This document shows positions 296-13,610 of a stretch of 13,610 nucleotides of DNA, in pieces. Under the pieces are notes generated by a model, which made no database searches, was not told the DNA's origin, and was given only the letters and a program-made list of their open reading frames with translations. This stretch comes from Chlamydiales bacterium (GTDB taxonomy: Bacteria > Chlamydiota > Chlamydiia > Chlamydiales > JBDQID01). How positions within the stretch are numbered: position 1 is the first letter of the stretch; every line of letters starts with the position of its first letter. The DNA is taken from NCBI GenBank assembly GCA_047611865.1, contig JBLFWS010000089.1, positions 1-13,610 of the forward strand, written 5' to 3'. A program made the translations under genes and the position numbers.

Positions 296-1399
296 TTATA
301 CGGGGTATATAGCACATACGCGCTCGTAAAATGCGTCTAAAGTATCATCAGCGATAGATTGCCGCAAGGTACGCATGAAATCAAGATAAAATGCCAGGTT
401 TTGGATCGTTACCAAAGTAAGACCTGTGATCTCATCTACATTGAGAAGGTGGCGGATATAGGCTTTGGAAAATTTGGACGTGTAACAGTCTAATTCCGGA
501 TCGAGAGGTGTGAAGTCTTTTGCATATCTGCCGGCTTTTATATTTATTTTCCCTGCCCATGTGAAGGCTGTGCCGTTGCGGGCATTGCGTGTAGGCATTA
601 CACAGTCGAACATATCTATGCCACGCATAACGGCTTCGATAATATTTCTTGGTGTGCCTACCCCCATGAGGTAGCGCGGCTTGTCTTTCGGGAGGTGTGG
701 CTCAACGGCGTCTATCATGTCATACATTACGGGAGCAGGTTCTCCTACTGAGAGCCCACCAATAGCATATCCCGGGAATCCCATGGAGCTGAGCTCCTGC
801 GCACACTGTTTACGCAATTCTGCATGGGAGCCTCCCTGCACAATGGCAAAAAGATTCTGATGACTTTGCAGTCCTTCTTCTAAACAGATTTTTTCCCATT
901 TCAGGGTGACTTCCATAGAGCGGGCTGCGGTGTCATAATCGCAGGGGAAAGGAGGACACTCATCAAAGGCCATTACAATATCGGAACCTAGAGTCCTTTG
1001 GATAGCCATGCTTTCACGAGGGCCTAAAAAATAGGAGGAGCCATCAATATGAGATTTGAAATGAACACCCTCTGGCGTTACTTTGTTTAGCTTGGAAAGA
1101 GAGAATACCTGAAAGCCTCCAGAATCCGTCAAAAGAGACTTATCCCAGTTCATAAATTTATGCAGGCCTCCTGCGCCTTCTATCACTTCCATCCCTGGAC
1201 GAAGCATTAGGTGATAGGTATTTCCAAGGATGATATCTGCTCCGATATCATCGAGTTGTTGACCTGTGAGAGTTTTCACAGCTCCACGCGTCCCTACCGG
1301 CATAAAAACAGGAGTTTCAATTGTACTGTGCTCTGTCTCCAAGACACCAAGGCGTGCTTTGCTATTGTTGCTGGCAACTTTTGTAATATTGAAACGCAT
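296..1399 (-). CDS. tgt: tRNA-guanine(34) transglycosylase (queuine tRNA-ribosyltransferase)
   Basis: Motifs TPVFMPVGT, ILGNTYHL, LTDSGGFQVFSL, MAFDEC, IVQGG, AIGGLSVGE, PRYLMGVG, DMFDCVMPTRNARNG. The ORF track starts at 1459; I prefer ATG 1399 (MRFNITK), which has AGGA just upstream. ATG 1405 is an alternative. Confidence 0.97.
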   Translation of the reverse strand: MRFNITKVASNNSKARLGVLETEHSTIETPVFMPVGTRGAVKTLTGQQLDDIGADIILGNTYHLMLRPGMEVIEGAGGLHKFMNWDKSLLTDSGGFQVFSLSKLNKVTPEGVHFKSHIDGSSYFLGPRESMAIQRTLGSDIVMAFDECPPFPCDYDTAARSMEVTLKWEKICLEEGLQSHQNLFAIVQGGSHAELRKQCAQELSSMGFPGYAIGGLSVGEPAPVMYDMIDAVEPHLPKDKPRYLMGVGTPRNIIEAVMRGIDMFDCVMPTRNARNGTAFTWAGKINIKAGRYAKDFTPLDPELDCYTSKFSKAYIRHLLNVDEITGLTLVTIQNLAFYLDFMRTLRQSIADDTLDAFYERVCAIYPV

Positions 1400-1482
1400 A
1401 TTCATCCTAAAAAATACAAACAAGTGACAGATTATGAAGCATTTGAGAATGAATTTCAATCACAAAAAGTCCGTGTTAAATT

Positions 1483-2919
1483 TTATTTATTCCTTTCTAG
1501 AACCGCAATATTTTCTACATGAACAGTATGTGGAAACTGATCAACAGGCCTGACAGCCACAAGAGAATATTTTTCTTCTGTGAGCACTTTAATGTTCTCT
1601 GCTTGTGTGGCTGGGTTGCAGGAAATGTAGAGAATTTTATCTGGAGACAGATCCAAAATATTTTTTAGAGCTTCTTCATCAAGACCAACCCTTGGAGGAT
1701 CTACAACTACCAGCTGGGGAGTTTCAAAACCCTCTTCGGCTCTCAGTAGAGTCAAAGTTTTTCCTACATCACCTGTAATCACTTCCATATTATTAATGTG
1801 ATTATCTTTTACATTTTCACGGGCGTCCAATGAGGATTCTGGTGAGAGCTCAATACCCAAAACTCTTTTGGCCTTTCCGGATGCAAGCATTCCTAGAGTT
1901 CCTGTGCCACAATAGAGATCGAAAACTGTTGTGTCTTCAGAGAGTCCCGCCATTTTTAGTGCTAGGGCATAAAAGTTCTCTGCCTGATCCGTGTTTGGCT
2001 GAAAAAAGGATGTGGGACTAACGTTAAACTGCAAGCTTGCCTCATCCATAGAGAGAGTTTCCCTGAGAAACTCAGGCCCGTACAGCTTCCACTCATAGAA
2101 TTTTGTAGGTTGACCCTTCTTGATTTGATGAATCCGTACAAAGATGCTGAGCTTAGGTGGTGATGGCTCCTTTTCCAATGCTTCCCTTAGGCAAGCCACA
2201 AAACTATCAAGAGAATCTTTTGATAACGCATAATCTGGATTTCCAGAGACCGTAAGCATCACGAGGCGATCTCCACTGCGCTTTCCCTCTCGCACCGTCA
2301 AAACTCGCAGACTTCCCTCATCTTTTCTGAAATGGTAGGCAGAGATCTTTGATTCTTCCCACCACTTTTTCACTGCAATCACAGTCTCAGCAAACCAGGG
2401 ATTCACCAGGTGGCACTCTGTAAGGTTAAAAACCTTTCCCCCACCTCCGGCCATCATCAGGCCTAGAAACTTTGTCTGCTTGCCGTTTTCAGAAAAAGAA
2501 AATTCCATCTTATTACGGTATTTCCAAGGCGTTTCACAAGGGATAATGGGCTCTATCTCGACGGATGTATTTTCTAGTAATGGAGCGAATTCTCTTTGGA
2601 CAAAGTCTGCTTTTCTTTCCAGTTGCTTGGAATAGGGGAGGTGCTGCCAACGGCAACCACCACAACTTCCGAAGTGGGCGCATTTAGGCTCAATCCTGTC
2701 TGGAGAGGCTTTTATTACCTCCTTCAAAATACTTGAGTATTTACCCCTTCTCTTGCTCATAAGGAGTGCAAGAACCTTTTCACCAGGAATGGTATGAGGA
2801 ACATCAACAGAATAGCTATCGCCATGTGTATTTTTGTAAGTACCCTGTCCAAAACCCTCTTTTGTCCAGGATTCAATTTCCAGCTCAACTTCTATAGGAG
2901 CTTTTTTTCTTCTTGCCAT
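1483..2919 (-). CDS. rlmD: 23S rRNA (uracil-C5)-methyltransferase, RlmD/TrmA family
   Basis: N-terminal TRAM-like region, 4Fe-4S motif C-x-HFG-x-CGGC, YRNKMEF, SFFQPN, SAM motif DLYCGTG, DPPR-x-G, catalytic YISCNP-x-T, and DQFPHT-x-HVE. The exact target base is not determinable from the sequence. Confidence 0.93.
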   Translation of the reverse strand: MARRKKAPIEVELEIESWTKEGFGQGTYKNTHGDSYSVDVPHTIPGEKVLALLMSKRRGKYSSILKEVIKASPDRIEPKCAHFGSCGGCRWQHLPYSKQLERKADFVQREFAPLLENTSVEIEPIIPCETPWKYRNKMEFSFSENGKQTKFLGLMMAGGGGKVFNLTECHLVNPWFAETVIAVKKWWEESKISAYHFRKDEGSLRVLTVREGKRSGDRLVMLTVSGNPDYALSKDSLDSFVACLREALEKEPSPPKLSIFVRIHQIKKGQPTKFYEWKLYGPEFLRETLSMDEASLQFNVSPTSFFQPNTDQAENFYALALKMAGLSEDTTVFDLYCGTGTLGMLASGKAKRVLGIELSPESSLDARENVKDNHINNMEVITGDVGKTLTLLRAEEGFETPQLVVVDPPRVGLDEEALKNILDLSPDKILYISCNPATQAENIKVLTEEKYSLVAVRPVDQFPHTVHVENIAVLERNK

Positions 2920-2960
2920 TAGATTTAATTTTGTATGGATGTGTCACGGAAAGGTTAATT

Positions 2961-3188
2961 TTATCCGCTTTTATTGAAAGACTGACACTCTGGACATTTG
3001 GTGACATGTTTGATGCTCTCTTCAAGGTATGCCTTGCTACAGTATTCACAAACAAAAAGAGAACGCTCATAAGGGACTATTTTTTTTCTACCTTGAACCA
3101 TATTGTAGTAGATCCACAGTACCAGTAAGACACCAAGAGTTGCCCCCAAGTAAAACATAAAAGCGGTTGAGAGAGAGAGTTTTAGCAT
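2961..3188 (-). CDS. Small hypothetical membrane protein with a C-terminal Cys4 zinc ribbon (CEYC...CPEC)
   Basis: 75 aa, with an N-terminal hydrophobic helix (TAFMFYLGATLGVLLVLWIYY), a basic stretch and two CxxC pairs. GAGG RBS upstream of ATG 3188. It fills the gap between two same-strand genes with 23 and 41 nt spacers. Confidence 0.82.
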   Translation of the reverse strand: MLKLSLSTAFMFYLGATLGVLLVLWIYYNMVQGRKKIVPYERSLFVCEYCSKAYLEESIKHVTKCPECQSFNKSG

Positions 3189-3211
3189 GTTTCCTCATTA
3201 AATAGCAAAGG

Positions 3212-4000
3212 TTAAGGGTGTCCAAGCATCTGGCTGCGAGAGGATAAGCTATCTTCGGCAAAGTTAAAAAGGATTTCTACCTCTCCCTCCGAAACAAAGG
3301 CTTTAGCTTGTCTGTCAAAAAGGAGATTCTTTGCCACTTCCAGGGCAAAGCTATCAATGCTACCTATTCGTGAGGAATGTCGAACGGCAGCCCAAAAGAC
3401 CTCTCCTGTTCTATCATCTACTCGGACTTCCACTTTTACTGAGTGAACGCCAGTGATAACTCTCCTTTGCAGCTCCTTCATCAGAGACTCCATGCCTTCT
3501 GAAGACGCCTCTCGTAAAGCCAGTTCTCCCGAAATACGAATTCTTACAGGAGTATCTAACTGTCCAAAAGAAATCGGCTGAATGAGAGAGAGAAAAGGAA
3601 TTTTTTCTACCTGAGTAAATTGATTTCCTGGATTGGAGAGTTCTTTTTGATTTTTTGTTTGCATCTTCACTTGTACATCGGGCATTTCTGGGAGAAGGGG
3701 AATGGAGGCCTCAGGCTCCAGAACATACCTTGGCAACAGTCCTTGATCATCCACGTACAATGCCGTGAGACTTCCTTTCATTTCTGAAGGTATTCCCATA
3801 TCTGCAGTGGTGATAACAGTAGAATAATGGAGAAGCGCACTAGGCTTCATGGAAGTAATCCCTACAATGGCAAAACCAGCTAAATGCAATGCTATCGCGA
3901 TAAGAAATGCCTTGCCGAATTTTTTATTCAGCAAAGGTTCATTATCTCGCAATCGTATCGCGATTTCTCGATGTGGGGCACCGCGGGTTAACTTCAGCAT
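3212..4000 (-). CDS. TonB/TolA-like energy transducer (N-terminal TM helix with His, Pro-containing linker, TonB_C-like C-terminus)
   Basis: TM segment FGKAFLIAIALHLAGFAIVGI with His at the TonB/TolA-like position, linker PEASIPLLPEMPD, and C-terminal VKVEVRVDDRTGEV...VRHSSRIGSIDSFALEVAK resembling the TonB_C pattern V-x-x-x-G-x-V...SSG-x-x-x-LD-x-AA. It lies 13 nt downstream of exbD. The CDS is confident; the family call is moderately confident. Confidence 0.72.
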   Translation of the reverse strand: MLKLTRGAPHREIAIRLRDNEPLLNKKFGKAFLIAIALHLAGFAIVGITSMKPSALLHYSTVITTADMGIPSEMKGSLTALYVDDQGLLPRYVLEPEASIPLLPEMPDVQVKMQTKNQKELSNPGNQFTQVEKIPFLSLIQPISFGQLDTPVRIRISGELALREASSEGMESLMKELQRRVITGVHSVKVEVRVDDRTGEVFWAAVRHSSRIGSIDSFALEVAKNLLFDRQAKAFVSEGEVEILFNFAEDSLSSRSQMLGHP

Positions 4001-4013
4001 CTCTTTTACGGCC

Positions 4014-4475
4014 TTATCGTCCTACTGTGTCAAAGTACTCTTGCTCATCATCTTCTGACGGTTTGTACACAAGGCGTACTTTCGCACTACACTCTTGTGT
4101 CGTAGAAAACAAACGTAAAAAAGGACCATACTCCACTCTTCGATCAATACTCAGCACAATGGTGGGATCAACACCGGAACGTTGCTTTTTAACAAGAGCG
4201 ATCTCTTCCATCAGGTGTTCTTTCAGTGAAGCTAAATCCACAATATCCTTCTTGGGTCCCAAGTAGATAACATTTTGTGCATCCATGACCACAAGAAGTT
4301 GTGTGGTCATGGGGGGTGAATCTTTGTTTATCTTCGGGTTTTCCACATTAAGTGATTTTAATGGGAGAATATCCGATGTGATAACAAAGAACACCAACAA
4401 GAGGAATATAACATCCACCAGTGGAGTCAGATCAATAAGAGTGTTTGAAGCCCGAAGGTTTGTTTTAAAATTCAT
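4014..4475 (-). CDS. exbD: ExbD/TolR family biopolymer transport protein
   Basis: IDLTPLVDVIFLLLVFF with the essential membrane Asp, and C-terminal IVLSIDRRVEYG matching the ExbD V-x-I-x-AD-x-x-x-x-Y motif. It overlaps the end of exbB by 11 nt. Confidence 0.92.
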   Translation of the reverse strand: MNFKTNLRASNTLIDLTPLVDVIFLLLVFFVITSDILPLKSLNVENPKINKDSPPMTTQLLVVMDAQNVIYLGPKKDIVDLASLKEHLMEEIALVKKQRSGVDPTIVLSIDRRVEYGPFLRLFSTTQECSAKVRLVYKPSEDDEQEYFDTVGR

Positions 4476-5139
4476 ACTCTTCCTGATGACTTACAAGGAG
4501 ATCTACAATTTCTGATGAGGTCGTCTGAATTTCCAGCACAAAGCCTTCGATCCGACTCACTATATAGTTGAATGCCACAACTGTGGGGATAGCCACTACG
4601 AGACCTGCTGCAGTAGTTGTTAGTGCGTACTCCATAGCCTCACCGATTTTCGTCGTTGAGATATCCATAAGACCACTAAGACGCATCTCACTAAAAGCTG
4701 CGATAAATCCCAGAACGGTACCCAACAATCCTATCAAAGGTGTGATATGTGCTATTATTGAAAGGATTTTTGCGTTCTTTTCCAGTTTTGCCACTTCTAT
4801 CAGACCAGCAATTTCCATAGAGTTTTCTATCTGCTGCCTGCCCTTATTATGCTTTAGCAGTCCTGCCTTAACAATATTGGCAATGGTTCCACCGGTGTAT
4901 TCACAGATGTTTACCGCCTCAACAATATTTTTTTCCTTAATCACTTTACGAAGATTGATAATGAACTTATTAGTGTCCACTTCAGACTTTCGCAAGTGAT
5001 AAAGCCTTTCGATAAATACCGTGAAGCTTAAAACAGAACAACCACCAATGATAACAAGTATACTATTCCAGTCAGAAACATTACGAAACAGCTCCATAAA
5101 GCTACCTAATGTTTCCGGGAGAATCTCAGTTAAAGCCAT
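4465..5139 (-). CDS. exbB: MotA/TolQ/ExbB family proton channel protein
   Basis: TPLIGLLGTVLG and ALTTTAAGLVVAIP motifs, and a first TM ending in IERL. The start is uncertain: ATG 5139 (14 nt overlap with the TPR gene) or ATG 5097. The 5187 start in the ORF track looks over-extended. Confidence 0.92.
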   Translation of the reverse strand: MALTEILPETLGSFMELFRNVSDWNSILVIIGGCSVLSFTVFIERLYHLRKSEVDTNKFIINLRKVIKEKNIVEAVNICEYTGGTIANIVKAGLLKHNKGRQQIENSMEIAGLIEVAKLEKNAKILSIIAHITPLIGLLGTVLGFIAAFSEMRLSGLMDISTTKIGEAMEYALTTTAAGLVVAIPTVVAFNYIVSRIEGFVLEIQTTSSEIVDLLVSHQEEYEF

Positions 5140-8100
5140 AGTCTTTTTCCAGTTTTTCTTTCGCTTTATATGCCCAGTCGCCACCAATTTTGGCGGTAGC
5201 TTCCAATTGTTTTATAGCTAGATCATGCCGGCCTTCGAGTTCATAGATCTCAGCCCGCAGGAACATTGATTTTAAGCGTAACGGTGAAACAACATCTTCG
5301 TTGATAACTTTAGAAAGAGTTAACATCGCAGTATTGTAATCTTCCATTTCACGATAACAGTGGCTTTGCTGAACCCAGAGATCCAGTCTCTGCTCGGTAT
5401 TCAGCAACCTACCCCTTGCAGTGTTTTCTGCATGGTTAAAAAATTTCAAAGCCAATTCATGCTCATCTTTCATCATAGCGATACGCCCCTGCTCATACCA
5501 CGCACGGGAGAGGTAGTACCCTCTTCTAACGTTAGCTTTTGAATACTTTTCTAACATCAGAGAAAGAAGTTCTTCAGCACCTGTATATTCTTTTGCTGTT
5601 ATATAGACCCTTACCAAACCATATTCACTCTCTTCAAATATCCTAGGGTAGGGATGCCCTCTCGTGAGGACTCGAGCCAAGGGGTGGTCTGGGTCATGAA
5701 AATCTTTAAGTATTTCCTCGAAAGATTCAGCAGCCCATTCCAGGTATACCTGCTGCTTAGCTCCTTCTACTTCCTCGGCCAGTCGGAGCTTTATAAGAGC
5801 TCTCTCCAATAGGGCACGATAGCGCACGGTTATGAAATACACTAGATCTTCTGAAGGTATAAACCCACGAGCATCTGCTCTGTCAAAAACAGCCTGGGAT
5901 TCTTCAAACGCATGAATGGCTGCACCGTAATCAGCTTTTTTCCAAACCGATCCATCACGACTCTTTCGATTTTGCTTGTGGTTCATCCCTACGAGATAAT
6001 GAGCGACGATGAGATAAGGAGACTGAGGGTACAGCAGTTCCATATTTTGCAAATGGGAAAGAGCTTCCGCATTTCCCTGCATATATTCGGTGAAGCTATA
6101 ATATTTGAAGTACGCCTGGTTCCCGTATTTTGAGTCAGAGTATTTTTCGAATACATTCTTTCTATACTCTCGTACAACTTCAGGTTTCTTACGCTGCCAC
6201 TGTGCACTTTCTCCTGCAAAAAACCAGGCCTCTCCAGCAAATTTTGATTTTGGATAGGTGACAGCAAGACGAGTATAGGCTCTTTCGGCCTTGTCGTATT
6301 CACCTTGTTTAAAATGAATCGTTCCTAAGAGATTCAAGGCATTATCTGCATACTTACCTTTGGGAAAATAATCTACAACTTGAGTAAGAGACTGATTTGC
6401 AATATTTAAGAAATCTTCTAGCTTATCATTAAAAAGGAGGCGAGAAGCTACAATTCCCTGAAGATAGAGGAGCTCATCCCGATTCTTCATCTTGGCAAAA
6501 ATATCACCATGCTCATTAAACAACTTGTTAAACAAGGCATAGGCTTCTAGACGTGATTCTTTATCATCTTTATAGAAGTGAGCCTGTGCAGCATATTTTA
6601 GAGATAATCCAGCGAGAGATTTTTCACTATCCTTAAGCAATTCAAAAGCTTTTTCAAAAGACAAGATAGCCCTGTCAAAGAGAACCCTCACCTCTAAAGA
6701 TTTTCTAGGTTCACGAAGTAGTTTTTGTCCCTGTTGTAAATCGTTGATACCCTTGAAGTACCATCCTTTTCCGTAATAGGGAGTCTTAGCGTAAACATCT
6801 TGCGCCAGCCTATCAAAGATCTCTACTCTTTTGCTATAAGTTCCCGCTGCCTCTCCTCTCAAAAGGATAGCTTCTGCCTCCTGATCAATTGAAGAAAAAG
6901 CTCCCTTGCCTTCCAGCAAGCGACTCGCTTTTAGATGAGATTTTGGATCACCCAACAAACGGGCGCGCAGCATATACAGTCGGGCTAAGCCAATGTATGC
7001 CTGATCGTTATGGTTAAAACTGATCAACTCTTGAAAAGCCGCTTCACCTTTGTCGAACAATGGCGGTAACTTATCTTTATGATCGTGATTGGCCTCACCC
7101 ATCTTCAAATAGCACCAAGCTAAATTATACAACGTATCAGGGTACCACTCGGCAAGGGTTTTGTTTCGTTTCGGTATAGCCTGATGAAACAATGCTGCTG
7201 CTTTCTCATATTGCTTTTTCTGGAAAAATGCTTCAGCACGAAGATACGAAGCTTCGTAACGAAGTGATTCATCGTTGGTGAATATCCCCAGTAGAGGGAA
7301 TAAGACATGTTCCACAGCTTCGTAATCTTGTCGCTGAAGGTAAATACGTGCCAAATAAAGCCTTCCTAGATAGTAAAGCTTTATATTTCCTGTGGCTCCT
7401 GACTGTGCTTTAAAGTATTCCTCAGCTTTTTCGTAGTCTTGTCGCTGAAAATTCATAAGGCCAAGCTGCCACTGAACTTCATTATAAAAAGTCAGGAGTT
7501 TTTTATCATCAAGCTTCAGATATGTGAAGAAAGAAGATATTGCATGCTCTCTTTTTCCCATTTCTTGATAGACAAGACCCAAAAGATAAAATACATTTTT
7601 CTGTGTATCACTAAGGAATCCGCTTTGATTGAGTAGCTCTCTATTCTTTTCTCTTTTCACGTTCGAGGCCAATTTCTCCAAAAGTACGGAGGCATCCCCG
7701 TAGCTTTCCACATGAAAATATGCCTCAGCCAAACGATAACGTACTTGCGTGGGTCTGTCGTCACCTTCACCTACGGTTTCTATAGCTGCTGGAAAAAAAC
7801 GACCATCAATAGCTTCAAGGACTTCCTCAAATAGTGGAACAGACTCTTCAAAAAGAGAAGCCTCTGCCAGCCTTTCTGCATTTCGGAGGAGGTCACCATA
7901 TTTTTTATTCAGTGAATATTCTAAACCTACAAGAAAGGATTTCTCTTCTGAGGGCCATTGCTTTAGAGGAACAAATTGTTCGAGGTTCTTAAGAATTGTG
8001 TAGGCCTCTCCAGAATTTCCTTGGGCATTGCGAAATTGAGCTCTTAAGGCCTCAATACGAATCAGGAATCTTTCATCAGGACCTTCTTTCAACAAAGCCC

Positions 8101-8398
8101 TTAAGCGAGCTTCCGCACTTTGGAAATCCTGAAGCCTGGCTTCTGCGGCTGCCAATCGCAATATCACGTCCATGTAGGTATTGTCGTTGGCGACTTCCTT
8201 TGCTCCCAGCTTTAATAACTTCATATAAGCTACGCGAGCGGCAGGATAGTCCTCTCTAGACATGGCGGCTTCAGCTTTTTCATAAAGCTTTCGCATTTCT
8301 TCTATTGTAGATATTTTCTCTTGTGCGAAACCAAAAGTCGTTACACAGCAGAAGAAAAGCAAGAAATAAACGTAAATTCGAACACTGTCACGAAACAT
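5126..8398 (-). CDS. Large exported tetratricopeptide-repeat (TPR) protein, ~1090 aa, with CpoB/BamD-like repeats
   Basis: Many TPR-like units (e.g. YRLAEAYFHVESYGDA, YLRAEAFFQKKQYEKA, YADNALNLLGTIHFKQGEYDKAERAYTRLAVTYPKSKFAGEA). From ATG 8398 (AAGGT upstream) there is a Sec-type signal peptide MFRDSVRIYVYFLLFFCCVTTFGFA|QE. The ORF track starts at GTG 8443. Confidence 0.88.
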   Translation of the reverse strand: MFRDSVRIYVYFLLFFCCVTTFGFAQEKISTIEEMRKLYEKAEAAMSREDYPAARVAYMKLLKLGAKEVANDNTYMDVILRLAAAEARLQDFQSAEARLRALLKEGPDERFLIRIEALRAQFRNAQGNSGEAYTILKNLEQFVPLKQWPSEEKSFLVGLEYSLNKKYGDLLRNAERLAEASLFEESVPLFEEVLEAIDGRFFPAAIETVGEGDDRPTQVRYRLAEAYFHVESYGDASVLLEKLASNVKREKNRELLNQSGFLSDTQKNVFYLLGLVYQEMGKREHAISSFFTYLKLDDKKLLTFYNEVQWQLGLMNFQRQDYEKAEEYFKAQSGATGNIKLYYLGRLYLARIYLQRQDYEAVEHVLFPLLGIFTNDESLRYEASYLRAEAFFQKKQYEKAAALFHQAIPKRNKTLAEWYPDTLYNLAWCYLKMGEANHDHKDKLPPLFDKGEAAFQELISFNHNDQAYIGLARLYMLRARLLGDPKSHLKASRLLEGKGAFSSIDQEAEAILLRGEAAGTYSKRVEIFDRLAQDVYAKTPYYGKGWYFKGINDLQQGQKLLREPRKSLEVRVLFDRAILSFEKAFELLKDSEKSLAGLSLKYAAQAHFYKDDKESRLEAYALFNKLFNEHGDIFAKMKNRDELLYLQGIVASRLLFNDKLEDFLNIANQSLTQVVDYFPKGKYADNALNLLGTIHFKQGEYDKAERAYTRLAVTYPKSKFAGEAWFFAGESAQWQRKKPEVVREYRKNVFEKYSDSKYGNQAYFKYYSFTEYMQGNAEALSHLQNMELLYPQSPYLIVAHYLVGMNHKQNRKSRDGSVWKKADYGAAIHAFEESQAVFDRADARGFIPSEDLVYFITVRYRALLERALIKLRLAEEVEGAKQQVYLEWAAESFEEILKDFHDPDHPLARVLTRGHPYPRIFEESEYGLVRVYITAKEYTGAEELLSLMLEKYSKANVRRGYYLSRAWYEQGRIAMMKDEHELALKFFNHAENTARGRLLNTEQRLDLWVQQSHCYREMEDYNTAMLTLSKVINEDVVSPLRLKSMFLRAEIYELEGRHDLAIKQLEATAKIGGDWAYKAKEKLEKDYGFN

Positions 8399-8946: not shown

Positions 8947-9360
8947 ATGGCACTGAAAACAACAATTACCCAACTCAAACGGCTTCTAGAAGATGCCAGA
9001 CTTGACTTGGAAAAAGCGGAATCTGGTAACAAAGCAGCTTCCCAACGCGTACGTACTGGGACTATTAAGCTAGAAAAAGTTGCTAAAACTTACCGCAAAG
9101 AGTCTATTACAGACGAAAAGAAAAACAAAGGGAAACAAGCTAAGCCGAAGGCTAAAGCAAAATCTAAGGCTGCTGCTAAAAAGAAAGCTGCTCCTAAAAG
9201 AGCTGCTCCTAAGAAAGCTGCACCTAAGAAAGCTGCTCCTAAGAAAGCTGCACCTAAGAAAGCTGCTCCAAAGAAAGCTGCTCCAAAGAAAAAAGCTGCT
9301 TCGCGTCCTACTGGCAGAAAAGCTACAGCAAGAGTACCAAGAAGAAGATCAGCTAGATAA
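8947..9360 (+). CDS. hctA: Chlamydial histone H1-like nucleoid-condensing protein Hc1
   Basis: The N-terminus MALK...DLEKAESGNKAASQRVRTGTIKLEKVAKTYRKESI is the Hc1 signature, followed by a Lys/Ala/Pro-rich tail. Strong RBS upstream and terminator downstream. Confidence 0.95.
   Translation: MALKTTITQLKRLLEDARLDLEKAESGNKAASQRVRTGTIKLEKVAKTYRKESITDEKKNKGKQAKPKAKAKSKAAAKKKAAPKRAAPKKAAPKKAAPKKAAPKKAAPKKAAPKKKAASRPTGRKATARVPRRRSAR
9181..9285 (+). repeat. 15-bp tandem repeat x7 (AAGAAAGCTGCWCCW) encoding KKAAP within hctA
   Basis: Units start at 9181, 9196 (KRAAP), 9211, 9226, 9241, 9256 and 9271, followed by a degenerate KKKAA. Confidence 0.97.
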
Positions 9361-10450: not shown

Positions 10451-12430
10451 TTATCCGACAAAAATCTTGATAAATACCAATGAAACTATAGACATAAGCT
10501 TAATCAAGATATTAAGGCTAGGGCCGCTAGTGTCTTTCAGAGGATCTCCAACAGTATCGCCAATTATAGCAGCTTTGTGAGGCTCTGAGCCTTTACCACC
10601 ACAATTTCCTGCCTCAATATATTTCTTAGCATTATCCCAAGCACCTCCTGAATTAGCCATCGCTATAGCCAGCAGAACACCTGTCGTAAGAGATCCAGCG
10701 AGAAAGCCTCCTAATGGCTCCAATCCCAAGATGACTCCTACCACAATAGGACTGAGAATAGCCAAAACACCAGGGGCTACCATCTCTCTAATTGCCGATT
10801 TTGTGGATATATCTACGCATTGAGTATAATTTGGTTTCGAAGTACCTGCTAAGATACCTGGGTCTTCTCGGAATTGCCTTCTCACCTCTTCGATCATCTC
10901 AAATGCGGCTCTCCCTACAGCTTTTATAGACAGGCTACAAAATACAAACGGAAGCATCCCTCCCAAAAGTAAACCCATCATCACTTTTGGTTTTGTCAAG
11001 CTGATAACCGTCAAATGAGATTCTGTGGCGAAGGTAGAAAAGAAAGCCAACGCCGTCAAGGCAGCAGACCCAATAGCAAAACCTTTACCAATAGCAGCCG
11101 TTGTATTTCCAACTGAATCCAAAATATCAGTTCTTTTACGAACCACCTCATCAAGACCTGCCATCTCGGCAATTCCTCCGGCATTGTCAGCCACGGGGCC
11201 GTAAGCATCGACTGCGAGACTTATGCCCAAAGTACTCAGCATGCCCACTGCTGCAATAGCAATGCCATACAGTCCTGCCGAACTAAACCCGAGGAATATA
11301 GTCGCCACAATAACCAAAATGGGCATGGCAGTACTTCCTAAACCTATAGCCAAACCTTCTATAATGTTTGTGGCTGCACCAGTCTTTGAGCTTTCGACAA
11401 TTTGCTTTACTGGTGGATAGCTCGAAGAGGTATAATATTCTGTAAACCACCCTATCAAGACTCCAGAAACCAAGCCCCCAATAGTTGCCCAAAATGGACC
11501 TAGTGAATCAAAAAGGCACCAACTCAAGCCAAATGCGGCTAACGCAACAACAATATTACTTACTATCAAAGCTCGTCTCAAGGCTTTGTGTATACCATGC
11601 TCGTCATCTGCTTTCACAAAAAAGACGCCGATAATACTGCCAACTATTCCCACTGATGCCAATGCCAAGGGATAATACAAGCCATCCGCTCCGTGAGAAA
11701 GAAGCCCAAGAGCCATTGCTGCAATAATACTGCCTACATAACTTTCAAAAAGATCTGCACCCATTCCGGCTACATCACCCACATTGTCCCCTACATTATC
11801 TGCAATAACTGCAGGGTTACGTGGATCATCTTCTGGAATACCACTTTCTATCTTTCCTACCAGGTCAGCTCCAACATCGGCGGCTTTTGTAAATATCCCT
11901 CCACCGACGCGGGCAAACAAAGCTACGGAGCTTGCTCCAAAACTCATTCCGAAAAGCACTTTAGGGTCTTCAAACATTTGATAAAGAACTAAAATCCCTA
12001 ACATGCCAAGCCCAACAACACTTAAACCAAGTACCGATCCAGAAGAAAAGGCAATGTTTAGAGCTTCATTCAGAGAACTTTTTGCGGCATTAGCGGTCCG
12101 AACATTGGCAATTGTAGCCACTTTCATTCCAATAAATCCAGCGATCGCAGAGCACAAAGCTCCGACTAAAAATGCGATTCCTGTTCTCCCGTCGATAAGA
12201 GCGATCAGAACAAGGAACACCACAAGAACAAACATAGAAAGTAGACGATACTCTCGCTTTAGGAAAGCATCCGATCCCTCCCGAATCATATCCGAGATTT
12301 CTACCATCTTTGCATCGCCCGGATCATATTGCTTCATTCTATAGAAGGTATAGATGACATAAACAAATGCTATAACTACCGAAGCATAGAATAAAGTAAA
12401 TGAAGAGGCCAAAAACAAATCAGTCAGCAT
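10451..12430 (-). CDS. hppA: Membrane-integral cation-translocating pyrophosphatase, K+-dependent, probably Na+-pumping
   Basis: Signature motifs [88 protein letters not shown] and [21 protein letters not shown]. Many TM helices; GGGG RBS upstream. Confidence 0.97.
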
Positions 12431-12528: not shown

Positions 12529-13610
12529 CTAGCTGCCGTTCTGGCTCTGTAAGCTCCGAGCAAAAGCTTCATCTCGATCAAGATCGGCCTCAACTTCCAA
12601 GTCTAATTCAATAGGGTCGTAACCTAATTTCCCCGGAATATCTCTTAGTAGGCTACGAATGGAACTGACGCAATTAAAGTGTTCTGGAATAGCCAAATTT
12701 ACCTGAACTAAATCCCCCTCGCCCATCTGAACCCATTCAAGTTTATCAGCTATATCTGTTAATAGAATGGTTTGGGACCTTAACAGCATCAATTTTTCTT
12801 CACTCATTCTATCAGGACTCTCCATTAACTCAAAATTTTCAAGAACTCCTCTAAGAAACCCCGTAACCTCTTGCAGATTATAAACATCCTTAGAATTTAA
12901 TTCTTTAATCGCGTGCCATGATCTCAAAAATGGCCCCTCTTCCTCTAATCCTAATGAATCAATTAGACTATTCAGCTTGTTTCCGCTTACAAAGTCAAAA
13001 GAGCATATCTTTTTTACAAATATCTCACGGGCATCTATCATTATCTGCGAAATGCTTTCAGTATTTGCATCACTAAGATTAGGAAGAGCCTCTAAATTTT
13101 GCAAAGTAGCAATCAGTTCTTCCATGGATTTTTCTAAGGAATTCAAATCATCGGATTTTTGAATTTTAGCCTTTCCTAGCATTTCAAATTGCTTAATTAG
13201 CTGCTGGAAAGTTTGCCCCATCTTTTCGTCAAATTGAGCATCCGGGAAATTTTGATAAAATTTACTGACACTTACACCGAAAGAAACAAAATCTTCTTCA
13301 ACAAAAATTCCTTCCCGAAAAGGATAAGTACCTAAAAAGTCTTTTAACTCTTTATCCAGCAAGCGCTCCCAACTATCTTTCTGTTCAGTTAGATCTTTTA
13401 TGACAATACTGTAGTAATCATAGAGAGATTGCATTTCGCCAAAAGCATTTAAGTCTTTTTTCTTTTTGATTAATGCCAGCCAACTTGAAAAGCCTTCTTC
13501 TATCAACAGCTCTGTATGTCGCTTGATATCAACAGTTGGATCTCTCCTTGAAGGGAATTTTTTAATTTCTAAAGAAACCTTTTCTAACAAGCCCAAGACA
13601 AGCTCAAAAG
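12529..13610 (-). CDS. Hypothetical alpha-helical acidic protein, 3' part only (possible secreted effector)
   Basis: Open frame of at least 355 codons. The frame stays open from the TTG at 13596 to the window edge (...F-E-L-V-L-G-L-L-E-K), so the real start is probably outside the window. It is rich in L/E/K/D/S, has no domain I recognise, and ends in DRDEAFARSLQSQNGS. Confidence 0.75.
   Translation of the reverse strand, partial: FELVLGLLEKVSLEIKKFPSRRDPTVDIKRHTELLIEEGFSSWLALIKKKKDLNAFGEMQSLYDYYSIVIKDLTEQKDSWERLLDKELKDFLGTYPFREGIFVEEDFVSFGVSVSKFYQNFPDAQFDEKMGQTFQQLIKQFEMLGKAKIQKSDDLNSLEKSMEELIATLQNLEALPNLSDANTESISQIMIDAREIFVKKICSFDFVSGNKLNSLIDSLGLEEEGPFLRSWHAIKELNSKDVYNLQEVTGFLRGVLENFELMESPDRMSEEKLMLLRSQTILLTDIADKLEWVQMGEGDLVQVNLAIPEHFNCVSSIRSLLRDIPGKLGYDPIELDLEVEADLDRDEAFARSLQSQNGS

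What the first reader, a model, noticed from the sequence alone, without database searches (positions are those of the whole stretch)
2961..8398. Five-gene ion-driven motor module: giant periplasmic TPR + ExbB + ExbD + TonB-like + membrane Zn-ribbon, with no receptor or tolB/pal
Seen: five same-strand genes with overlaps or gaps of 23 nt or less, consistent with translational coupling. Established: ExbB/ExbD-type stators use the ion gradient to drive a TonB/TolA-type transducer, usually acting on a TonB-dependent receptor (Ton) or TolB/Pal (Tol). Related stators with TPR and TonB_C partners drive myxobacterial gliding (AglRQS-Glt). Here there is no beta-barrel receptor, tolB or pal in the window, and the channel motif (TPLIGLLGTVLGFI) is not the TolQ-type (SPYIGLFGTVWGIM). 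Inference: this is a separate energised envelope machine in which the ~1090-aa TPR solenoid is the load or scaffold. It sits head-to-head with the late developmental gene hctA, so it could act in envelope remodelling during RB-to-EB conversion, in outer-membrane protein assembly, or in uptake. I do not know of a functional description of this cassette.
Basis: partly seen in the sequence, partly recalled or inferred. Interest (0 to 1): 0.72.

Follow-up and report, generated by a model that had tools for sequence, protein, structure and literature searches.

The report
Chlamydial receptor-less TonB-type motor cassette
Five tightly packed genes of an environmental chlamydia encode a predicted ion-driven membrane motor of the Ton/Tol kind plus a giant repeat protein and a small zinc-ribbon membrane protein; the set recurs in many chlamydiae and related phyla, is separate from the Tol-Pal genes, and likely acts on the cell envelope through the repeat protein rather than through a nutrient receptor.

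Summary
Observation confirmed. The genome, a Chlamydiota assembly, has a separate tolQRAB-pal locus, and no TonB-dependent receptor was found. Orthologues of the cassette ExbB (52-83% identical) occur in 86 of 300 chlamydial genomes; all five genes lie in order in 54 of 60 fetched loci. The zinc-ribbon gene tracks the stator (39 of 40 versus 0 of 40 genomes). ExbD Asp21, the TonB-like His39 and ExbB Thr176 are invariant, and the transducer's C-terminal domain folds like TonB/TolA. The same cassette recurs in Omnitrophota-like contigs; this scan noted it there before. New here: the TPR's C-terminal cap is kept in 59 of 60 motor-linked loci but missing in 6 of 8 motor-less copies, and the presumed Chlamydiaceae keep only the TPR (probably CT744). 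The proposed link to hctA and RB-to-EB conversion is not supported: in Protochlamydia exbB is constitutive and low. The target is unknown; best guess is an accessory envelope force machine acting through the TPR. New variant of a known kind; not found described in 9 literature searches.

The parts
5126..8398 (-). Giant TPR solenoid, 1090 aa, with a predicted cleavable signal peptide (predicted soluble periplasmic); conserved C-terminal cap about residues 1001-1090; probable orthologue of C. trachomatis CT744
   Evidence: Pfam TPR; all-helical model pLDDT 93.5; cap column identity 0.60-0.62 vs 0.0-0.33 in residues 1-700; N-terminal hydrophobic stretch in 53 of 60 relatives, lipobox-like in 1
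4465..5139 (-). ExbB/TolQ-type stator subunit, 224 aa, three predicted membrane helices, Thr141 and Thr176
   Evidence: PF01618 E 6e-27; Thr176 in 60 of 60; Thr141 in at least 90%; median 68.5% identity to 60 orthologues
4014..4475 (-). ExbD/TolR-type subunit, 153 aa, membrane Asp21
   Evidence: PF02472 E 1e-23; Asp21 in 72 of 72 aligned
3212..4000 (-). TonB/TolA-type transducer, 262 aa: short cytoplasmic hairpin, membrane helix with Ala35-x3-His39, Pro-containing linker, TonB/TolA C-terminal fold at about 150-250
   Evidence: His39 in 71 of 71; model; Foldseek top hits TonB CTD; top 11 VIA rows all TonB/TolA/HasB/FusB CTD, best Z 7.6, rmsd 2.6, 78 aligned
2961..3188 (-). Single-pass membrane protein, 75 aa, with a predicted cytoplasmic CxxC-x14-CPxC zinc ribbon
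   Evidence: C47, C50, C65, P66, C68 invariant in 38; mean 4.2 K/R in 15 residues after the helix; 894 clusters at E<=0.001
8947..9360 (+). hctA (histone H1-like), divergent neighbour; conserved neighbour but not part of the machine
   Evidence: NF051889 above cut-off; present in 54 of 60 loci and next to motor-less TPRs

Best explanation
The five genes encode a predicted Ton/Tol-family ion-driven inner-membrane motor (ExbB, ExbD, TonB-like) that is separate from Tol-Pal and lacks a detectable TonB-dependent receptor, and that likely transmits force to the envelope through the giant TPR protein, whose conserved C-terminal cap likely docks on the motor, with the zinc-ribbon protein as a likely dedicated membrane accessory. 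Shown: co-conservation, intact catalytic residues, fold, absence of a found receptor. From established Ton/Tol biology: an ExbB pentamer with an ExbD dimer conducts ions via the Asp/Thr ring and the transducer binds the pentamer edge through its His. Inferred: TPR docking on the periplasmic face (ExbD or the TonB stem), the variable N-terminal solenoid reaching an unidentified outer-membrane or wall target, and a low-level housekeeping role in envelope maintenance or assembly that small-genome lineages can drop.
For: Order kept in 54 of 60 chlamydial loci and in 29 of 30 Omnitrophota-like loci with room upstream. Zn gene in 39 of 40 stator-positive and 0 of 40 stator-negative genomes. Asp21 72/72, His39 71/71, Thr176 60/60. 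ExbB is more conserved (median 68.5%) than neighbouring RlmD (50%) and, in one genome pair, than TolQ (73% vs 48%). TPR cap reached in 59 of 60 motor-linked loci, even in 153-372 aa mini-versions that lose N-terminal repeats, but missing in 6 of 8 motor-less TPRs. The TonB CTD is missing in 17 of 59 transducers (one cut by a contig end) while His helix, stator, cap and Zn gene stay, so the CTD is not the essential output. Plug domain in 1 of 40 cassette genomes. Precedents for TPR or receptor-less partners: TtpD2 (PMC6957404), PocAB-TonB3 (PMC5285504), TPR-tolQ-vWA loci (PMC12204202).
Against: No target identified and no binding measured. Two of 8 motor-less TPRs (L103, L107) plus G190 keep the cap; L107 keeps a TonB-like gene without exbBD, which points to a TPR-TonB rather than TPR-stator contact. 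The TPR profile was built from motor-linked copies, which favours them. In P. amoebophila TPR RNA is about 20-fold above exbB and pc1548-pc1551 are not in the table, so the TPR may mostly work without the motor. Partial decay occurs (L037, L065, L073, L140, L155, L160). Related genomes are not independent.
Confidence: 0.55

Rival explanations
1. Ton-like uptake: the motor energises import through a non-canonical outer-membrane channel, with the TPR as a TtpD-like helper.
For: TonB-type CTD fold; TtpD2, a TPR protein, is essential for iron transport in Vibrio TonB2 (PMC6957404, title and passages); exbBD-tonB with TPR genes is up-regulated on cellulose in Fibrobacter without an identified receptor (PMC6851124).
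Against: No PF00593 or PF07715 match in the genome; plug in 1 of 40 cassette genomes; CTD missing in 17 of 59 transducers.
Confidence: 0.15
2. PocAB-TonB3-like accessory motor that positions or assembles a pilus/secretin machine.
For: PilX-like gene follows the cassette in 12 of 80 non-chlamydial loci and a PilM gene in some; Poc precedent (PMC5285504); weak sub-threshold PorW/SprE similarity of the TPR.
Against: No pilus genes recognised next to the chlamydial loci (unlabelled ORFs not all annotated); the genome's PilM/GspL-like gene is found in 36 of 40 cassette-positive and 33 of 40 negative genomes; most non-chlamydial loci continue with DUF2582/CutA-type genes instead.
Confidence: 0.15
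3. A decaying relic: the TPR has its own motor-independent job and the motor genes are on their way out.
For: Stator orthologue not found in 214 of 300 genomes, with TPR-only states in several families; low exbB RNA; broken loci.
Against: ExbB 52-75% and ExbD 45-73% identical across many families with invariant functional residues; same cassette in other phyla.
Confidence: 0.07
4. Developmental envelope-remodelling motor co-regulated with hctA at RB-to-EB conversion.
For: hctA is the divergent neighbour in 54 of 60 loci; hctA and TPR share the 'mid' class in P. amoebophila.
Against: exbB is 'const'; neither gene is 'late'; adjacency survives motor loss; non-chlamydial copies lie behind uvrA.
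Confidence: 0.05
5. A duplicate TolQRA that serves the genome's TolB-Pal.
For: Best NCBIfam and PDB sequence hits of ExbB are TolQ, though far below cut-off; TPR has a sub-threshold CpoB/YbgF hit.
Against: Complete tolQRAB-pal on C98; cassette ExbBs form their own group (SH-aLRT 99) apart from chlamydial TolQ (98); window ExbB is only 31-41% identical to chlamydial TolQ over partial alignments.
Confidence: 0.05

Closest known systems
ExbB-ExbD-TonB (Ton system, E. coli type)
   Same: Stator pair with Thr/Asp residues; transducer with membrane His and TonB-CTD fold
   Different: No TonB-dependent receptor found; Ala-x3-His instead of Ser-x3-His in 66 of 71 chlamydial copies; CTD often missing; fixed TPR and zinc-ribbon partners
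TolQRA-TolB-Pal(-CpoB)
   Same: Homologous motor; TPR partner (CpoB) in the known system
   Different: No tolB/pal in the locus; the genome has a separate tol-pal; ExbB in a different group; TPR about four times CpoB's length and upstream
vWA force transducers beside TPR-tolQ-tolR-tolR genes (PMC12204202)
   Same: PVC bacteria, TPR gene upstream of the motor, His-anchored transducer, function unknown
   Different: One ExbD, TonB-type rather than vWA C-terminal domain, separate zinc-ribbon protein; this genome has a vWA transducer elsewhere (C53)
Vibrio TonB2 system with TtpB/TtpC/TtpD (PMC6957404)
   Same: TonB system with an essential TPR accessory
   Different: No TtpB/TtpC counterpart; Vibrio system serves siderophore receptors; TtpD is 425 aa
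PocA-PocB-TonB3 of Pseudomonas aeruginosa (as described in PMC5285504)
   Same: ExbBD-TonB homologues with a non-transport role
   Different: No TPR or zinc-ribbon partner described in the passages read; pilus link not seen in chlamydiae
AglRQS-Glt gliding motor of myxobacteria (recalled, not tested)
   Same: 5:2-type stator with TonB_C and TPR partners
   Different: Single ExbD here; no sequence comparison made; no gliding known to me in chlamydiae

Membership tests
Ton/Tol 5:2 motor family | MotA/TolQ/ExbB subunit with three membrane helices and lumen threonines | tested here: met
Ton/Tol 5:2 motor family | ExbD/TolR subunit with membrane aspartate | tested here: met
   Asp21 in 72 of 72
Ton/Tol 5:2 motor family | Transducer with membrane His and TonB/TolA CTD fold | tested here: met
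   His39 71 of 71
Ton/Tol 5:2 motor family | Ion-gradient-driven force generation | not testable with these tools
   needs experiment
Ton system | TonB-dependent plug-and-barrel receptor as partner | tested here: not met
   0 matches in own 95.5% complete genome; plug in 1 of 40 cassette genomes
Tol-Pal | tolB and pal in the locus | tested here: not met
   absent from window and not recognised in 60 loci; present with a different stator on C98
Tol-Pal | Stator within the chlamydial TolQ group | tested here: not met
   quick trees; no AU test run
vWA force transducer system | TPR gene upstream of a tolQ-like gene | tested here: met
vWA force transducer system | Two different tolR-like genes and a vWA C-terminal domain | tested here: not met
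   one ExbD; no Pfam VWA hit, TonB-type fold instead
Vibrio TonB2/Ttp system | TtpB and TtpC genes beside exbBD-tonB-ttpD | tested here: not met
   only five genes, one ExbB-family gene in the cassette
PocAB-TonB3 | Required for pilus and flagellum placement | not testable with these tools
   co-occurrence with PilM-like gene absent; orthology to PocA not tested
AglRQS-Glt | Orthology to AglR/Q/S and Glt proteins | not tested
   no myxobacterial sequences were fetched

The most novel reading that the evidence does not exclude
A third, PVC-ancestral class of Ton/Tol machine in which a giant TPR solenoid, not the TonB C-terminal domain, carries the motor's force to the envelope, gated by a cytoplasmic zinc ribbon; it and the TPR-vWA motor are alternative solutions to one envelope task (71 of 74 sampled genomes outside the presumed Chlamydiaceae have at least one), and CT744 of C. 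trachomatis is its motor-less relic.
Probability: 0.3. Interest if true: 0.75.

Novelty: new variant of a known kind. Interest (0 to 1): 0.5.

Why it matters
It adds an undescribed, widely conserved configuration to the small set of machines that carry inner-membrane energy across the periplasm. Earlier notes of this scan placed it in uncultured phyla; here it is shown in chlamydiae, including cultured amoeba symbionts (gene order in P. amoebophila; named zinc-ribbon homologues in Criblamydia and Estrella), so it can be studied. It gives a first structural and evolutionary reading of the hypothetical protein CT744 and shows that chlamydiae have up to three Ton/Tol-type motors without receptors, which bears on the open question of what chlamydial ExbBD-like proteins do (PMC5599777).

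Tried and rejected
Complex prediction (TonB-like 46-250, two ExbD 36-140, partner TPR 750-1090): verdict 'no answer'. Score 0.69, partner-replaced controls 0.00 and 0.00, but 0.59 with the TonB-like chain replaced, under the 0.20 margin; not used as evidence either way. Promoter and terminator scan: 13 and 5 sites, equal to shuffles. No tRNA. Foldseek on the TPR model: generic TPR solenoids only, TM by query under 0.3; the PflA/PflB-type flagellar scaffold rows (9hmf) are not specific. Atlas search of the TPR cap: unnamed TPR clusters. HypA label for the zinc-ribbon protein rejected: sub-threshold, 35 residues. PilM co-occurrence rejected. Omnitrophota neighbours DUF2582, the 88-aa gene and PilX-like have no match in this genome. 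Joint monophyly of chlamydial and Omnitrophota-like ExbBs is unresolved (support 69); the careful tree did not finish and no AU test was run. A peptidoglycan link (sacculus in Protochlamydia, ring in C. trachomatis, none isolated from Simkania; PMC5814848 passages) fits three species at most and Simkania's status was not verified here. Literature searches found no description of the cassette; subscription papers and bioRxiv supplements were not searchable, and only part 13 of 29 of the PMC12204202 supplement was read. Verrucomicrobial gene neighbourhoods could not be fetched.
Full report
Observation. The five ORFs are present on the minus strand from 8398 to 2961 with spacings of -14, -11, +13 and +23 nt. 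Families: TPR repeats, MotA_ExbB, ExbD; the fourth and fifth proteins have no above-threshold family. The fourth has one membrane helix with His39 and a modelled C-terminal domain whose best structural matches are TonB and TolA C-terminal domains (Foldseek ranks 1-2; top 11 VIA rows, best Z 7.6, rmsd 2.6, 78 residues; Z under 8 is modest, but the top rows are one family). The fifth has one helix and an invariant four-cysteine ribbon on the predicted cytoplasmic side. The TPR models as an all-helical solenoid, pLDDT 93.5.

Genome context. The genome (3.59 Mb, 272 contigs, 95.5% complete) is chlamydial: its homologues are titled Parachlamydiaceae, Waddliaceae, Chlamydiales. It has four MotA/ExbB genes: flagellar on C106, a tolQ-tolR-tolA-tolB-pal locus on C98 (TolB above its NCBIfam cut-off), an orphan exbBD on C14, and this one. 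No TonB-dependent barrel or plug was found (controls rang in 3 of 14).

Chlamydial distribution. In 300 scored genomes the window ExbB has a clear orthologue class (E 5e-53 or better, 52-77% identity, next hits E 1.6e-19) in 86, counting G000 (my count from the table): f6 28 of 32, f3 15 of 18, f13 6 of 6, f17 5 of 5, f18 5 of 5, and none in f4 (29), f7 (46), f9 (26), f10 (62), f31 (11). I fetched 60 of the 85 other loci. All five genes are in order in 54; two are cut by contig ends, one has the zinc-ribbon gene further off, three are disrupted. In a panel of 40 stator-positive and 40 stator-negative genomes the zinc-ribbon profile hits 39 and 0 (the miss ends at a contig break), the plug domain 1 and 0. 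Related genomes are not independent, so these are descriptive counts. Quick trees place the cassette ExbBs apart from chlamydial TolQ and from the C14 type. Asp21 (72/72), His39 (71/71) and Thr176 (60/60) are invariant; their equivalence to E. coli ExbD Asp25, TonB His20 and ExbB Thr181 is from the TolQ alignment and from recall.

Modularity. The TPR's last 90 residues are its most conserved part. Motor-linked TPRs range from 153 to 1080 aa, shrink from the N-terminal side and reach the cap in 59 of 60 loci. At the hctA locus of 20 stator-negative genomes, 8 keep a detectable TPR and one more has a syntenic 941-aa ORF; 6 of the 8 lack the cap, two of them while matching strongly up to their own ends, and 2 keep it; one search adds one more of each. 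The small-genome family f4, which I take to be Chlamydiaceae, keeps the TPR between hctA and hemG-hemN. From recalled gene order and its 821-823 aa length (PMC1403754 and PMC11925237 table rows) this is probably CT744; not checked by sequence. A transposon insertion at codon 257 of 823 is listed for CT744; the authors did not assess fitness (passages). The TonB-like CTD is missing in 17 of 59 copies. Together this suggests a core of stator, His-anchored stem, TPR cap and zinc-ribbon protein (inference).

Beyond chlamydiae. The zinc-ribbon profile finds 894 clusters; named members among 20 looked up are Omnitrophota, Auribacterota and Hydrogenedentota, and Atlas look-alikes are mostly Verrucomicrobiota and Lentisphaerota clusters. 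Of the best 80 of 356 metagenome loci, 29 of 30 with at least 4.6 kb upstream have TPR, ExbB and ExbD, 44 of 45 with 1.9 kb have ExbB and ExbD, and 51 of 51 transducers have Ser-x3-His; their ExbBs are 40-48% identical to the window's. Their phylum is inferred from the query's relatives. They sit behind uvrA, not hctA; 12 of 80 have a PilX-like gene downstream. Earlier notes of this scan describe the same cassette in uncultured phyla; none by sequence or place for chlamydiae. One note found Asp-less, CTD-less copies; chlamydial copies keep the Asp.

Expression. In the P. amoebophila developmental RNA-seq table (PMC5451489, supplement file 2 rows) the genes rumA1-hctA-TPR-exbB (pc1544-pc1547), matched by order, are classed mid, mid, mid and const; log2 RPKM is mostly 8.4-9.3 for the TPR and 4.3-5.4 for exbB; pc1548-pc1551 are not listed; tolQRAB are 'early II'. 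This argues against a late, hctA-coupled role and shows the TPR in excess over the motor.

Mechanism. Shown: genes, conservation, residues, fold, separation from Tol-Pal, no receptor found. From established knowledge: such stators form 5:2 ion-driven motors and engage transducers via the His (PMC12204202 section 8). Inferred: the TPR docks by its cap on the periplasmic side and extends to an unidentified envelope target, with the zinc-ribbon protein as accessory; a low-level envelope maintenance or assembly role (0.55). Rivals: unconventional uptake (0.15), Poc-like pilus or secretin assembly (0.15; the PilM-like gene does not track the cassette), decaying relic (0.07), developmental role (0.05), duplicate TolQRA (0.05). 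A vWA-type transducer with its own TPR exists in this genome and shows a roughly complementary distribution (12 of 40 versus 31 of 40), which may reflect function or only phylogeny.

Literature seen. PMC12204202: passages, sections 8 and 11, supplement search and part 13 of 29; it lists only tol-pal for Chlamydiae in that part and describes the vWA system, not this one. Passages only: PMC5599777, PMC6957404, 10.64898/2026.06.07.730766 (69), PMC6851124, PMC5814848, PMC5285504, PMC13174399, PMC11925237, PMC1403754. PflA/PflB papers: listing only (122). AglRQS-Glt is recalled. Nine searches found no description of the cassette; unsearched subscription papers and unseen supplements could hold one.

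Verdict. Real, conserved, a member of the Ton/Tol motor family but of neither the Ton nor the Tol-Pal system by their partner criteria. New variant of a known kind, already noted by this scan on other DNA; the chlamydial distribution, cap co-retention and CT744 link are the additions. Interest 0.5.

Noticed in passing
G000 C14:4980-8968 (L271): Third Ton/Tol-type stator: exbB-exbD without a TonB gene, preceded by an 844-aa membrane-anchored coiled-coil protein with a C-terminal LysM domain; its ExbBs form their own group (support 100), seen in 13 of 20 paralogue loci fetched.
   Followed up: partly
G000 C53:10654-15439 (L270): 952-aa TPR plus 651-aa membrane protein with Ala-x3-His helix and a vWA domain, like the vWA transducers of PMC12204202. 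Found in 12 of 40 cassette-positive and 31 of 40 negative genomes; all 12 positives have 3 or more ExbB-family matches and 27 of the other 28 have at most 2, suggesting it pairs with the C14 stator.
   Followed up: partly
G000 C106:3-6296 (L001): Flagellar genes (MotA/PomA-type stator, MotB-like, hook-associated ORFs) in a chlamydial genome; flagellar ORFs also on C1 73849-75162 (read by eye).
   Followed up: no
L107 (G001) 1640-5650: Full-length TPR followed directly by a TonB-like gene that lacks the membrane His and has no exbBD beside it.
   Followed up: partly
window 296-2919: tgt and rlmD lie downstream of the cassette here, whereas most relatives have rlmD-tgt behind hctA: a local rearrangement; L141 and L154 show other arrangements.
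   Followed up: partly
window 10451-12430 and 12529-13596: Membrane H+-pyrophosphatase (PF03030, E 8e-278) and a 355-aa ORF with no family.
   Followed up: no
G000 C1:66342-69871 (L269): PilM/GspL-like, PilN/O-sized and MORN-repeat genes before recA; widespread in chlamydiae, 69 of 80 genomes.
   Followed up: partly
L165-L244: In Omnitrophota-like ExbDs the membrane Asp position is Asp in 32, Asn in 5 and unmatched by my pattern in 16 of 53: some copies may be non-conducting.
   Followed up: no
G058, G147: Second copies of the zinc-ribbon gene (and in G058 of exbB).
   Followed up: no
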